Source: Bryobacterales bacterium (lineage in GTDB: Bacteria > Acidobacteriota > Terriglobia > Bryobacterales > Bryobacteraceae). Taken from it: a stretch of 64,000 nt of DNA. Numbering within the stretch: position 1 is the stretch's first letter; each line of letters opens with the position of its first letter. Below the pieces are notes generated by a model. That model was given only the letters and a program-made list of their open reading frames with translations, did no database searches and had not been told where the DNA came from. Positions 32,058 through 60,564 of this stretch are shown piece after piece. Both the position numbers and the translations under genes were made by a program. The stretch lies in NCBI GenBank assembly GCA_003170295.1, contig PNAJ01000148.1:3946-67945 (forward strand), written 5' to 3'.

Positions 32058-32100
32058 AGCCGCCTCGAAAGGCGGCTGCCGCCAAAATTGGCCGCCCCAC
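32058..32100 (-). repeat. REP family 3 unit
   Basis: AGCCGCCTCGAAAGGCGGCTGCCGCCAAAATTGGCCGCCCCAC is the reverse complement of the units flanking the RAYT gene at 59546 and 60243. Confidence 0.85.
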
Positions 32101-35970: not shown

Positions 35971-37979
35971 TTATTGGAGGATCTGAACGATATTACTGTA
36001 ATCGTCGGTCCAGCCGCGGAAACCCGGCTTACGTTGCAGTTTGCTGACGGCGAAATGGTCCTGAAAATTCGCGTGTTCAAAAAGTGCGGGAGCGCGGGAG
36101 ATTAAGATCCATGTCGACGGCGAATAGTAATTCTCGTCCTCGCCGGCGTCATCGATCACGATTCCACTAAAACCGTTTGCTGCTGCCGCGTCGGCGACCA
36201 CCGGCGCCAGATCCAGATAGCGATTGGTAATGTTGATGGCGAGAACCCCATTCGGGTTCAGATGGCGGAGGTACGTCCGGTAGGCCTCCGCTGCGAGAAG
36301 ATGGACTGGGACGGCATCGCTCGAAAAGGCGTCCATGGCGAGAAGATCCAGATGCTCGGCGGGCATGCTCTCAAGCACCAGCCGGCCGTCGCCCAGGAAG
36401 AGGCGCTTTTCGGCGGGACAAGCGTTCCAGAATCCGAACTCGGATTGTGCGATTGCCACGACCAGTGGATTGATCTCGTAGTAATGCAAGGTGTCGCCCG
36501 CGCGAGCCAGAGTCGCGGTGACGCCCGCTCCCAGGCCGAGGACGCCGATACGAAGGGGGCCGCGCTCGCCCAGCGCGCGAAGGGCTCGGTTGATACCGGA
36601 GCCGCTGCCGAAATACGACGTCGGGATGCGATCGCCGCCAGGGCGCAGCAATTGAGTACCGTGATTGATAGTGCCGTGAATCAGCACGCGCTGCGCCGGC
36701 GAGTGCTTGCCTGGTGCGTCATCCCGTACTCGCAGCACTCCGTAGAAATTGCGCGCGGAGAGGGTATATTCGCGGGACTCCCGAACATGGTTCTGAATCA
36801 GGTAACCCGCGAAGGCGAGGATTGCTAGCGCGGTCGCGACATGGAAGAGCCGCCTGAAAGGGCGGCTGCCGCCAATATTGGCGGCCCCACAAGACACCAG
36901 CGCGGCGCACAGCACCATTCCCGCGGGCAGCTCGATATATGAGTTGAACAAACGCGGAGCAGCCAGTGCGACGAACGTTCCACCTAGCGCGCCGCCGAGC
37001 GAGACCATCAAATAAAACTGCGTCAGATATCGAGGATGGGGCCTCCGGCGCGCAAGCTCACCGTGGCAGACCATGCAACATACGAAGAGCGCTGCGCAGA
37101 GTGCGGGAATGAGTCTTGTAACATAGGCATCGCTCTGATACGTCGCGATAAAACCAGGAGCGGCAGAAAAATGGCGCGGTTATAGAACCGATCGCTCTCG
37201 AAACAGAGAATAAAGCTGAGCAGATAGAGACTCAGAGGCGCCACCCAGAGCAGCGGAATCGGGGCGACATTCTGAGTCAGATGACTGGTGACCGCGAGCA
37301 ACAGAATAGAAGCGCAGGCGGAGAGGCCGATCCACAACATGCGCTGGGAGAGTCCCGGAGGCGATGCGGGGCCGGCGGTGGAAGGCTCCGTAGGCTGAGC
37401 GCCCACTCGGCTGCGCCACGCCACGATCAAGCACACGACTGCAAATCCGCCGTATGCAACGGACCAAATGAGGGCTTGCCTTGAGAGGGCCAGGCGCGGT
37501 TCGATCACGAACGGATAACTCAAGAGCGCGAGCATCGATCCAAAGTTTGAGAGCGCGAAGAGACGATAGGGAATCGCGCCTTCGTGCGCTCGAAGATACC
37601 AGGCTTGCAGCAGAGGACTGGTGGCCGAAAGGAGCGCGTAGGGCAATCCGACGGTTGCGCCGAGCAGAAGAAGAATGCGCAGTGTGGGATCGCCCGCGCC
37701 CGATGGTTTCCACGCGGCGGAGGGAATAATCGGCAGTGTGGCGAGGCTCGCGATCAGCAGCGAGCCATGCGTCCAAAATTGCTGGGCCGGCTTCAAATAG
37801 TGGATGATGCAATGCGCGTAAAGATAACCTGCAAGCAAGAGCAGTTGAAAGAAGAGAAGCGCCGCGCTCCACACCGCCGCGGATCCACCGAACCAGGGGA
37901 GAATGAATTTTGCTATGAGTGGCTGGACTTGGAAAAGCAGAAATGCGCTGAGAAAAATAGTCGCGGCGTAAAGCGGCAT
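35971..37979 (-). pseudogene. Tandem paralogue of the fused membrane/spermidine-synthase-like gene, split by a 1-nt frameshift
   Basis: Two ORFs (37979-37023 and 37074-35971) align colinearly with the neighbour. The frames switch at a T4 run (plus-strand A4, 37150-37153). One extra T would restore ..LLVFIATYQSDAYVTRLIP.. Confidence 0.7.
36848..36890 (-). repeat. REP family 3 unit embedded in-frame inside the paralogue coding sequence
   Basis: AGCCGCCTGAAAGGGCGGCTGCCGCCAATATTGGCGGCCCCAC is translated as ..CGAANIGGSRPFRRLF.. Confidence 0.85.
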
Positions 37980-59303: not shown

Positions 59304-59329
59304 AAGTCCATTGTAAGTAATATGTTGTT

Positions 59330-59538
59330 ATGACAGACACCGTCGTAGAAGCCCTGATCCTCGATCTTCTCGACTGGCTGGCAGCCCGCGAGCGAACCTA
59401 TGAAGAAGTAATGGACGCCTGGCGCACGTCCTGCCCAAACTCCCGGTGTGGGAAGAAGCGAATGACCGGGGACTTATCATAACGGAGGAAGGGATCGTAA
59501 AGATAACTTCGCTGGGACGCACCCTCCTGGACCGCTGA
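59330..59538 (+). pseudogene. Frameshifted copy A of a small conserved hypothetical gene
   Basis: The first about 105 nt are nearly identical to 60322-60564. A C3 run at 59434-59436 stands against C4 in copy B, which shifts the frame to an early stop. The corrected frame ends at 59538. Confidence 0.65.
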
Positions 59539-59545
59539 CGGCCTT

Positions 59546-60284
59546 GTGGGGCCGCCAATATTGGCGGCAGCCGCCCTTTCAGGCGGCTCTGGCTCTGAGA
59601 ATTTTTCCTCTCCAAAACCACAACTAAATCATATGAAACGCTACGAGCGACGCCTCCCACACTGGGACGCAGTAGGCCAACCCCTCTTCGTTACTTTCCG
59701 CCTGCACGACAGCCTTCCCGTCAACCGCGTGTTTCCTCCATCTGAACTGACCACCGGGAAAGCGTTCGTCGCGATGGATCGCATCTTAAGATCGAGCAGA
59801 AACCGGCCCGAAGCATCTCTGCATCCCAGAAATCGCCGCGCTTGTAGCTACATCTCTACGCGAAGGCGACCGCCGATTCCTCCGCTACAAACTACATGCC
59901 TTTGTGGTCATGCCGAATCATGTTCATCTTCTGGTAACCCCCAACGTCGTTGCCACGCGATGGCTCGGGCCTCTGAAGGGTTTTACCGCCTATCAAGCCA
60001 ACCGAATCCTGGGTCGCGCCGGCAACCCATTCTGGCAACACGAAGGCTACGATCACCTCGTGAGATCGGACGAAGAGTTTGCTCGGATCCGCAGATATAT
60101 CGAAAACAATCCGGCATCCGCTGGCCTTGTTGCCGAACCGGGAGATTTCGAGTGGTCGAGTGCGTACGCAGGGCCGCCTGAAAGGGCGGCTGCCGCCACT
60201 AACTGACCCGCTTGTGGAGCAATCAACTGTTGAGGCAATAATGTGGGGCCGCCAATTTTGGCGGCAGGCGCCCTTTCTAGGCGG
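59546..60284 (+). mobile_element. RAYT-REP unit: REP3 - Y1 transposase (disrupted) - REP3 partial (inverted) - REP3
   Basis: REP3 units lie at 59546-59588 (+), 60173-60198 (-, partial) and 60243-60284 (+), bracketing the HUH/Y1 gene. Confidence 0.8.
59633..60206 (+). pseudogene. REP-associated tyrosine transposase (RAYT, IS200/IS605-like Y1 HUH), disrupted by a +1 frameshift
   Basis: MKRYERRLPHWD..G..LFVTFRL is in one frame. ..DRAETGPKHLCIPEIAALVATSLREGDRRFLRYKLHAFVVMPNHVHLLV...RYIENNP is in the next frame. A TAA at 59787-59789 lies inside CTTAAG. Deleting one A restores MDRILDRAETGPK. Confidence 0.75.
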
Positions 60285-60321
60285 TTCGTTGCACCCCGGA
60301 TCGAGATTGTATATTCAAAGC

Positions 60322-60564
60322 ATGGCCGACGCCGTCGTAGAAGCCCTGATCCTCGATCTTCTCGACTGGCTGGCAGCCCGCGAGCGGACCTATGAACAAG
60401 TAATGGACGCCTGGCGCACTTCCTGCCCCAAACTCCCGGTATGGGAAGAAGCGAATGATCGAGGACTTGTCACGAAGAAAGAAGTAAACGGCCGCAGCAT
60501 CGTCGCGATCACATCATCCGGCCGTGCTTTATTGAGGCAGCGCACAAAAGCCGGGCAGATCTAG
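60322..60564 (+). CDS. Small conserved hypothetical protein (intact copy B, 80 aa)
   Basis: MADAVVEALILDLLDWLAARERTYEQVMDAWRTSCPKLPVWEEANDRGLV... The longer track ORF from 60079 reads through REP3 and is rejected. Confidence 0.55.
   Translation: MADAVVEALILDLLDWLAARERTYEQVMDAWRTSCPKLPVWEEANDRGLVTKKEVNGRSIVAITSSGRALLRQRTKAGQI

What the first reader, a model, noticed from the sequence alone, without database searches (positions are those of the whole stretch)
59546..60284. Frameshifted RAYT transposase flanked by its cognate REP family, with further copies elsewhere in the window
**Seen in sequence.**
- A Y1/HUH transposase (RLPHWD..., MPNHVHLLV, RYIENNP) is bracketed by REP3 units (GTGGGGCCGCCAATATTGGCGGCAGCCGCCCTTTCAGGCGGCT) at 59546 and 60243.
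- An inverted partial unit at 60173 overlaps the gene's 3' end.
- Further REP3 units lie at 32058 and 36848.
- The gene is broken by one extra A inside CTTAAG (59785-59790), which creates a TAA.

**Established knowledge.** RAYTs are typically single-copy genes flanked by the REP/REPIN family they mobilise.

**Inference.** REP3 is this RAYT's substrate family. The family may now be immobile, unless the frameshift is bypassed or is a sequencing error.
Basis: partly seen in the sequence, partly recalled or inferred. Interest (0 to 1): 0.6.

Follow-up and report, generated by a model that had tools for sequence, protein, structure and literature searches.

The report
Broken RAYT transposase with its REPs
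A REP-associated tyrosine transposase gene in a soil acidobacterial genome has recently been knocked out by one extra base, while about 50 to 136 copies of the short hairpin repeat it normally services remain; this is an ordinary system, newly documented in this lineage.

Summary

**The gene.** Window 59633-60206 (+) encodes a Y1/HUH REP-associated tyrosine transposase (RAYT). It carries the motifs NHVH, WQ and YIENNP, which fit Quentin subclass 2.4 / Bertels group 4. One extra A inside CTTAAG (59785-59790) splits it into two frames.

**The frameshift is real.** Three separately assembled JGI metagenome contigs match the window at 100%. Two of them cover the lesion. Orthologues at the same chromosomal site in related populations (79-80% aa) are intact.

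**The flanks.**
- A complete REP3 unit lies upstream at 59546.
- A decayed inverted unit overlaps the stop. It is complete in the orthologues.
- A degenerate direct unit lies at 60243.

**The REP3 family.**
- REP3 has a GT[G/A]G foot followed by two abutting 7-bp hairpins.
- It has 136 copies genome-wide. 47 belong to the exact subtype that flanks this gene.
- Most copies are extragenic, and the stems show compensatory changes.
- Within the genus it is found in 4 of 61 genomes.

- The genome holds at least five RAYT paralogues, each with its own REP type. Two others are also decayed.
- An intact 75%-identical paralogue carries a sister REP3 subtype, so REP3 need not be immobile.

This is a new member of a known kind, of modest interest.

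The parts
59546..59588 (+). 5' REP3a unit in direct orientation. It has a GTGG foot, then hairpin 1 (GCCGCCA/TGGCGGC) and hairpin 2 (AGCCGCC/GGCGGCT).
   Evidence: Exact 43-mer. DNA fold -17.5 kcal/mol, z = -4.9. The same REP sits at the same place in orthologous contigs.
59595..59602 (+). CTGAGAAT motif between the 5' REP and the start codon. It is probably a promoter or 5'-UTR element (inferred).
   Evidence: TGAGAA is present upstream of all 5 RAYT paralogues, and follows only the 2 RAYT-linked copies out of 136 REP3 copies. It lies at -34 to -50 in 35 of 72 loci from other species.
59633..59788 (+). RAYT 5' part, frame A, residues 1-52 (MKRYERRLPHWD...AMDRIL).
   Evidence: Translation. Alignment to intact homologues.
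59785..59790 (+). CTTAAG containing the one surplus A (59788 or 59789). It shifts the frame by +1 and puts a TAA (59787-59789) in the downstream frame.
   Evidence: The site is identical in the independently assembled contigs L030 and L031.
59790..60206 (+). RAYT 3' part, frame B, residues 53-190. It holds HVH (59919-59927), the WQHEGYDH loop, the catalytic Tyr codon (60096-60098) within YIENNP, and the stop TGA (60204-60206).
   Evidence: Translation. Pfam, NCBIfam and PDB matches.
60163..60220 (-). 3' inverted REP3a, decayed. Hairpin 2 and the 3' arm of hairpin 1 are kept (60173-60198). The foot and the 5' arm of hairpin 1 are lost through a 3-nt deletion and substitutions (GTGG to GCGG).
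   Evidence: nhmmer 28.8 bits. Orthologues carry the full unit GCCGCCTGAAAGGGCGGCTGCCGCCACTATTGGCGGCCCCAC, read in frame as PPERAAAATIGGPT.
60243..60285 (+). Downstream direct REP3a copy, degenerate. It lies head-to-head with the decayed inverted unit and is absent from the orthologous loci.
   Evidence: (fold -13.7 kcal/mol).
59330..59538 (+). Small gene copy 1, at the ancestral position upstream of the RAYT. It is broken by loss of one C in a C-run (59434-59436).
   Evidence: The orthologous contigs have one intact copy here.
60322..60564 (+). Small gene copy 2 (80 aa, intact). It is part of about 500 bp that lie between the RAYT and fadD only in this genome.
   Evidence: The two copies are 92.7% identical over 151 nt.
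36848..36890 (-). Dispersed REP3a copy, identical to the 5' flank unit.
32058..32100 (-). Dispersed REP3 copy of the sister subtype (GTGGGGCGGCC..., with a G:G mismatch in stem 1).

Best explanation
This is a vertically inherited RAYT locus ('REPtron') of a Bryobacterales-type acidobacterium. Its transposase gene has recently become a pseudogene.

**How the system works when intact (inferred from the family).** The 190-aa HUH/Y1 nuclease binds single-stranded REP3 DNA. It recognises the GT[G/A]G foot and the first hairpin, then cuts and rejoins the strand. This spreads or maintains the REP3 family.

**What has happened here (shown).**
- One inserted A after codon 52 leaves 52 native residues followed by an out-of-frame tail. 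That product lacks the HUH motif and the catalytic tyrosine.
- The 3' inverted REP has lost its foot and half of hairpin 1.
- About 500 bp of new sequence now lies between the gene and fadD.

**Timing and consequence (inferred).** The break is recent, because nothing else in the coding sequence is damaged. The 47 REP3a copies, and up to 136 in the wider family, are therefore either orphaned or served in trans by a paralogue.
For: **RAYT identity.** Supported. The motifs NHVH, WQ and YIENNP, and the length of 190 aa, match Quentin et al. 2018 subclass 2.4 (PMC6006769). 3706 homologues were found, many named 'REP element-mobilizing transposase RayT'.

**Position of the frameshift.**

**The frameshift is real.**
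- Contigs from JGI samples 3300050350 and 3300037316 are 100% identical to the window over 5153 and 3927 nt, including the lesion. A third, from sample 3300037155, is 100% identical over 1877 nt but ends before it.
- The contig is otherwise clean: 89% of it lies in ORFs of at least 100 aa, with ORFs up to 965 aa.
- No intact copy at 90% identity or more is on record.

**The break is recent.** Only 2 unique substitutions fall at otherwise conserved sites, which is within the range of the intact homologues.

**Synteny.** Orthologous contigs read icd, methyltransferase, small gene, REP3, intact RAYT (195-196 aa), inverted REP3, fadD.

**The REP3 family.**
- 136 nhmmer hits, against 0 for the control pattern.
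- Subtypes by three linked positions number 47, 33, 29 and 15.
- Stem pairs show compensatory changes: 10-19 is CG in 122 and GC in 12 copies; 12-17 is AT in 123 and TA in 9.
- 75% of copies lie outside long ORFs, which cover 90% of the sequence.

**Decay recurs in this clade.**
- The G019 orthologue has an 11-nt deletion.
- The G019 orthologue of the C71 paralogue has its own +1-nt shift.
- The C27 paralogue has a deletion of about 20 nt.
Against:
- The three JGI contigs are clonal. They may share reads if one of the samples is a co-assembly.
- Nuclease activity and REP3 mobility are inferred from the family, not shown.
- NCBIfam REP_Tyr_transpos scores 67.3 bits, below its 80-bit cut-off.
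- Most REP3 copies are singlets rather than inverted doublets. The REPIN model of mobility therefore does not transfer directly.
Confidence: 0.85

Rival explanations
1. REP3 is not orphaned. The intact paralogue on contig C71 (197-aa open frame, 75% identical) services it in trans, or the C71 paralogue is the true partner of part of the family.
For: - The C71 gene is intact.
- A REP3b unit (GTAG foot, same hairpin 2) sits directly upstream of it, in the position the 5' REP holds at the window locus.
- REP3a copies remain very uniform. Of 34 indel-free copies, 24 have 2 mismatches or fewer.
Against: - The 3' overlapping inverted repeat of C71 is a different type (REPc; tail ACSKQAAG*). Across 120 homologues, each tail type tracks its own RAYT clade without exception.
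- The foot differs (GTAG against GTGG). The loop that contacts the foot in E. coli TnpA-REP also differs (WQNESH against WQHEGY).
Confidence: 0.25
2. The frameshift is a sequencing or assembly artefact and the gene is intact in the cell.
For: - It is a single-base indel in a draft MAG with 168 contigs and 83% completeness.
- A second single-base indel lies 350 bp away, in a C-run.
- The gene has no other damage.
Against: - The same sequence was recovered in separately assembled contigs from two samples.
- The rest of the 70-kb contig shows no sign of indel noise.
- The 3' REP and the locus layout are also altered, which fits real decay.
Confidence: 0.07
3. The +1 shift is bypassed by programmed ribosomal frameshifting at UUA-AGA-U, or by transcriptional slippage, so full-length RAYT is still made.
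For: - The shift is +1 and sits next to an AGA codon.
- The upstream frame stays open for another 130 codons.
Against: - Orthologues and all 120 closest homologues are encoded in one frame.
- Broken relatives carry different lesions at different sites.
- There is no slippery P-site re-pairing: UUA to UAA. This is read directly from the sequence.
Confidence: 0.02

Closest known systems
TnpA-REP / RAYT of E. coli (PDB 4ER8) with its REP/BIME sequences
   Same: - It has an HUH motif, a WQ-type loop and a catalytic Tyr in Y-I-x-x-N-P, all aligned.
- The gene is flanked by the repeat it is thought to process.
- The repeat is a GT[A/G]G foot 5' of a G+C-rich hairpin.
   Different: - Sequence similarity is only remote (E = 0.0017).
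- The HUH is preceded by N rather than D (NHVH against DHLH of subclass 2.2).
- REP3 carries a second abutting hairpin.
- The copies are mostly singlets.
- The gene here is a pseudogene.
Quentin et al. 2018 TnpA-Y1 subclass 2.4 (= Bertels et al. 2017 RAYT group 4), PMC6006769
   Same: - The key motifs NH[IFV]H, WQ and YIxNNP match.
- Length is about 194 aa.
- These are canonical long REPs whose stem bottom is three G-C pairs.
- More than one copy per genome is common.
   Different: - Assignment rests on motifs only. No tree with their reference sequences was built.
- No REP is inserted inside the gene here.
- The tandem second hairpin is not part of their description.
Acidobacterial 'TIRYT/TIRtron' group of Di Nocera et al. 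2013 (PMC3733652), e.g. Koribacter versatilis with three such genes
   Same: - It is in the same phylum.
- There are several RAYT-like genes per genome, each with its own flanking inverted repeats.
- Some of those repeats are double palindromes.
- Only some of those repeats are amplified in the genome.
   Different: - Here the flanking repeat is a well-amplified family (47-136 copies) with a clear GT[G/A]G foot, so it counts as a REP proper.
- Sequence relationship to their listed genes was not tested.
REPIN-RAYT systems of Pseudomonas fluorescens SBW25 (Bertels and Rainey 2011, PMC3116915)
   Same: - There are several RAYT paralogues, each tied to its own REP family.
- The RAYT is inherited vertically at a fixed locus.
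   Different: - REP3 occurs overwhelmingly as single units, not as inverted doublets.
- It belongs to a different RAYT subclass and a different phylum.

Membership tests
RAYT / TnpA-REP (HUH Y1 nuclease) | HUH motif and catalytic Tyr (Y-x-x-x-N-P) in a Y1_Tnp domain | tested here: met
   HVH at 59919-59927 and Tyr at 60096-60098. Pfam PF01797 scores 28.6 bits against a cut-off of 23. Both motifs align to 4ER8.
RAYT / TnpA-REP (HUH Y1 nuclease) | Curated equivalog model (NCBIfam NF047646) above its cut-off | tested here: not met
   67.3 bits against a cut-off of 80. The model is built on proteobacterial members, so the hit supports family-level kinship but not equivalog status.
RAYT / TnpA-REP (HUH Y1 nuclease) | Gene flanked by REPs in inverted orientation | tested here: met
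   The 5' direct unit is complete. The 3' inverted unit is decayed here but complete in three orthologous contigs. 49 of 72 loci in other species have an inverted repeat of at least 12 nt between the flanks.
RAYT / TnpA-REP (HUH Y1 nuclease) | The flanking repeat is a dispersed genomic family | tested here: met
   136 hits, of which 47 are the flanking subtype.
RAYT / TnpA-REP (HUH Y1 nuclease) | Intact reading frame, as expected of a functional member | tested here: not met
   A +1-nt insertion at 59788/59789, reproduced in other assemblies.
RAYT / TnpA-REP (HUH Y1 nuclease) | Cleaves and joins its REP as single-stranded DNA | not testable with these tools
   This needs biochemistry.
Canonical REP (Quentin 2018 / Di Nocera 2013 definition) | GTAG or GTGG tetranucleotide 0-2 nt 5' of a fully paired stem of at least 7 bp | tested here: met
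   GTGG or GTAG is present in 133 of 136 copies, followed by 1 nt and then a 7-bp stem.
Canonical REP (Quentin 2018 / Di Nocera 2013 definition) | Stem kept by compensatory change | tested here: met
   Pair 10-19 is CG in 122 and GC in 12 copies. Pair 12-17 is AT in 123 and TA in 9. Pair 8-21 is CG in 47, GT in 33 and GG in 46.
Canonical REP (Quentin 2018 / Di Nocera 2013 definition) | Extragenic bias | tested here: met
   102 of 136 copies are not deep inside long ORFs, although such ORFs cover 90% of the sequence. These are crude ORF calls, not an annotation.
REPIN (REP doublet forming a hairpin) | Copies occur predominantly as inverted pairs with a short spacer | tested here: not met
   Only 11 neighbouring pairs lie within 1 kb. 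6 of them are inverted: 2 at the RAYT locus itself and 4 tail-to-tail doublets elsewhere.
Subclass 2.4 / RAYT group 4 | Motifs NH[IFV]H, WQ and YIxNNP; about 194 aa; REP stem bottom of three G-C pairs | tested here: met
   NHVH, WQ and YIENNP; 190 aa; stem bottom GCC/GGC. No phylogenetic placement was done.
Programmed +1 frameshift gene | The shift site is conserved in orthologues | tested here: not met
   All orthologues and homologues are in a single frame.

The most novel reading that the evidence does not exclude
This clade may offer a readable specificity code and a natural orphaning experiment.

**A possible specificity code.**
- The loop after the conserved WQ contacts the GTAG foot in E. 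coli TnpA-REP.
- It is WQHEGY in every RAYT whose tail encodes GTGG-foot REP3a. It is WQ[NGS]ES[YH] in those with GTAG-foot REPc.
- Two such RAYTs, 75% identical, coexist in this genome with sister REP subtypes. The subtypes differ at three linked positions: the foot (G or A), stem 1 position 8 (C or G) and position 21 (G or T).
- If the loop sets foot specificity, this pair shows a RAYT-REP partnership splitting in two.

**A possible orphaning experiment.** The fresh frameshift would mark the moment one REP population lost its enzyme.
Probability: 0.2. Interest if true: 0.5.

Novelty: new member of a known kind. Interest (0 to 1): 0.3.

Why it matters
**Why it matters.** RAYT-REP systems have been studied almost entirely in Proteobacteria. 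This locus documents one in Bryobacterales (Acidobacteriota). It has a tandem-hairpin REP, several co-resident RAYT-REP pairs, and RAYT genes caught at different stages of decay.

**Consequence for annotation.**
- The 211-aa ORF at 59546-60181 is not a gene.
- The locus should be called a RAYT pseudogene.
- REP3 units should be masked before ORF calling, because about a quarter of copies fall inside long ORFs.

**Possible use.** Models of REPIN populations predict slow decay after the RAYT is lost. A dated loss with intact sister populations is a usable test case. The biology itself is expected.

Tried and rejected
- **Read pileups.** Independent assemblies were used instead.
- **Exact-pattern scan of metagenome contigs, allowing either form of the junction.** It gave 0 hits. 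The tool warns that records near the window's genome may be left out. Identical JGI contigs were later reached through an exact protein look-up.
- **Empty-site comparison within the genus.** Six relatives have a single small gene, but neither icd nor fadD lies within 1.5 kb of it. Genus-level synteny therefore gave nothing. Closer metagenome contigs did.
- **Rfam at a permissive threshold.** Only a chance microRNA hit appeared.
- **Sigma-70 promoter scan.** It found nothing.
- **Programmed frameshift.** Rejected because the shift is not conserved.
- **Foot position 3 pairing with stem position 21, as a guide-target pair.** Rejected. G/G and A/T do not form a consistent pair, and the pattern is better read as linked subtype markers.
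- **A first Python census using fuzzy regular expressions.** It timed out and was replaced by blastn-short and nhmmer.

Full report
**1. What is in the sequence**

Window 59633-60206 (+) holds a Y1/HUH transposase gene split over two frames.
- Frame A reads MKRYERRLPHWD...AFVAMDRIL.
- Frame B, one base further on, reads DRAETGPKHL...MPNHVHLLV...FWQHEGYDHLVR...RYIENNP...PPERAAAATN* and has a TAA at 59787-59789.
- Joined at L52|D53, the 190-aa product matches Pfam Y1_Tnp above its gathering score.
- It matches NCBIfam 'REP-associated tyrosine transposase' at 67 bits, below the 80-bit equivalog cut-off.
- Its best solved relative is E. coli TnpA-REP, 4ER8. HUH, WQ and the catalytic Tyr all align.
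- Nine-way alignment with intact homologues of 70-84% identity shows no gap at the junction.
- DNA alignment with three orthologous contigs shows exactly one surplus base: ATCTTAAGATCG against ATCTT-GGATCG.

**2. The frameshift is real**

I therefore looked up the exact products of the broken ORFs in the protein collection.
- The 50-aa fragment of the neighbouring broken small gene is on record on three JGI contigs.
- Those contigs come from three samples and have different lengths: 71.7, 6.1 and 1.9 kb.
- They are 100% identical to the window over 5153, 3927 and 1877 nt. The two longer ones cover the RAYT frameshift.
- The contig is otherwise clean. 89% of it lies in ORFs of at least 100 aa, and ORFs reach 965 aa.
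- No intact copy at 90% identity or more exists among 5.8 billion clusters; the best is 84%. The exact read-through sequence is not on record either.

I put the chance of an artefact at about 7%.

The lesion is recent. The gene has only 2 unique substitutions at otherwise conserved sites, like its intact relatives.

**3. The locus is ancestral and has been rearranged**

Contigs encoding 79-80% identical intact RAYTs carry the same neighbourhood. The order is icd, a methyltransferase, a 69-72-aa small gene, REP3, RAYT (195-196 aa), and fadD convergent right after the stop.
- In them the 5' REP3 is nearly identical to the window's, although the gene has diverged by about 20%.
- The 3' end reads through a complete inverted REP3, giving the tail PPERAAAATIGGPT.

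The window differs in four ways.
- The inverted unit has lost 3 nt and its foot has changed from GTGG to GCGG. This creates an early stop.
- About 500 bp has appeared between the gene and fadD. It holds a degenerate direct REP3 (60243), an intact second copy of the small gene (60322-60564) and a MITE-like repeat.
- The small-gene copy at the ancestral position (59330-59538) has lost one C in a C-run.
- The methyltransferase is absent.

**4. The REP3 family**
- blastn-short finds 81 copies and nhmmer finds 136 (E of 0.01 or less) in the 6.2-Mb, 168-contig assembly.
- A 42-nt pattern with up to 3 mismatches gives 40 hits, against 0 for the reversed control.
- Each unit is CTT-GT[G/A]G-G followed by two abutting 7-bp hairpins. 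The fold is -17.5 kcal/mol with z about -5.
- Stem 1 shows two-sided changes. Pair 10-19 is CG in 122 copies and GC in 12. Pair 12-17 is AT in 123 and TA in 9.
- Three linked positions define subtypes. G/CC/G has 47 copies (REP3a, the type at 59546, 60243 and 36848). A/CG/T has 33 (REP3b). G/CG/G has 29 (the type at 32058). G/TG/G has 15.
- Three quarters of copies lie outside long ORFs.
- Copies are mostly singlets. Only four tail-to-tail doublets exist away from the RAYT, so the REPIN form is not the rule here.
- REP3a is tight. Of 34 indel-free copies, 24 differ from consensus at 2 sites or fewer.
- Within the genus, REP3 occurs in 4 of 61 genomes. Two of the three others (G019 and G051) carry a RAYT 68-78% identical to this one; the third (G073) reaches only 49%.

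**5. Not single-copy**

tblastn finds five RAYTs of this type.
- C44 is this gene.
- C71 is intact and 75% identical.
- C123 is 47% identical.
- C153 is 53% identical, and its N-terminus appears truncated.
- C27 is broken by a deletion of about 20 nt.

Three more distant Y1 genes are also present. Each of the five has its own flanking repeat type.

C71 has a REP3b unit directly upstream. Its 3' overlapping repeat, however, is another type (REPc).

Among the 120 closest homologues, two associations hold without exception.
- The REP3a-encoded tail occurs only with the loop WQHEGY (12 of 15, against 0 of 105).
- The REPc-type tail occurs only with WQ[NGS]ES[YH]-type loops (32 of 45, against 0 of 75).

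This is clade-level co-inheritance. It supports cognate pairing but does not prove a recognition code.

**6. Decay recurs**
- In sister species G019 the orthologue has an 11-nt deletion.
- The G019 orthologue of the C71 paralogue has its own one-base insertion, five codons from our site.
- The lesions are different and lie at different places, while all other homologues are in a single frame. This argues against programmed frameshifting.

**7. Placement**
- The clade belongs to Bryobacterales / Solibacteraceae MAGs from peat and soil.
- The motifs NHVH, WQ and YIENNP, the length, and the three G-C pairs at the stem foot fit subclass 2.4 of Quentin et al. 2018. That subclass equals group 4 of Bertels et al. 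2017.
- Di Nocera et al. 2013 had already noted several RAYT-like genes with distinct, sometimes double-palindromic, flanking repeats in Acidobacteria.

The system is thus a new member of a known kind.

**8. Mechanism: shown and inferred**
- **Shown:** the gene family, the lesion, the flanking and genome-wide REP family, the stem covariation, the synteny, and the lineage restriction.
- **Inferred from the family:** the intact enzyme binds the GT[G/A]G foot plus hairpin 1 on single-stranded DNA, then cleaves and rejoins it. The frameshift product, 52 native residues plus an out-of-frame tail, is inactive.
- **Open:** whether REP3a is now immobile or is served by the C71 paralogue. I put cross-service at about 25%.

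Noticed in passing
window 59595-59602; also contigs C71, C123, C153 and C27 of the genome, and loci L033-L112: A TGAGAA motif lies between the 5' REP and the start codon of all five RAYT paralogues. Of 136 REP3 copies, only the two RAYT-linked ones are followed by it. In 35 of 72 RAYT loci from other species it sits at -34 to -50. It is probably a promoter -10 or 5'-UTR signal for this RAYT clade.
   Followed up: partly
window 59330-59538 and 60322-60564: The small gene flanks the RAYT on both sides. The copy at the ancestral (upstream) position is the broken one, having lost one C in the run at 59434-59436. The intact copy sits in sequence that is absent from orthologous loci. The two copies are 92.7% identical over their first 151 nt and much less alike afterwards, which suggests a partial duplication or gene conversion.
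   Followed up: partly
genome contigs, e.g. C156:43763, C39:38526, C79:84095, C79:53734, C64:1727: A subset of the 17 REP3 copies that are followed by a GCGTTTTC-type motif sit inside a larger shared repeat: ...CTCGAAAACAC... REP3 ...GGCGTTTTCATCCCCATCGTTGCCCAGCCGCTGGGCAGGGAAACACTCGTGCGTGCCGCGTCGACACTCG. Either REP3 prefers to insert in that element, or the composite spreads as one unit.
   Followed up: partly
genome C27:14607-15135, C153:30368-30850, and G019 contigs C40 and C572: Other RAYT genes of this type are also decayed. C27 has a deletion of about 20 nt. C153 appears to lack the N-terminal RLPHWD region. Both G019 orthologues are frameshifted. RAYT loss seems frequent in this genus.
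   Followed up: partly
genome C110:48049-48161, C125:57983-58094, C153:4842-4955, C74:13515-13628: There are four tail-to-tail inverted REP3 doublets with no spacer. In each, one partner carries a different second hairpin (for example GCAGCCTGCC...GGCAGGC). Hairpin modules appear to be exchanged between REP types.
   Followed up: no
window 59304-59330, compared with L022-L024: Orthologous contigs have a methyltransferase gene (195-256 aa) between icd and the small gene. It is missing in this genome.
   Followed up: no
window 35971-37979: Two long ORFs (367 and 318 aa) overlap by 52 nt on the same strand. This is around the REP3a copy at 36848 and may be another frame break or a REP-related junction.
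   Followed up: no
proteins P0001-P0014 and P0054; loci L022-L024: In intact orthologues the RAYT reading frame runs through the whole inverted REP3. The repeat is translated as PPERAAAA-x-IGGPT at the C-terminus, so REP sequence is part of the protein in this clade.
   Followed up: partly
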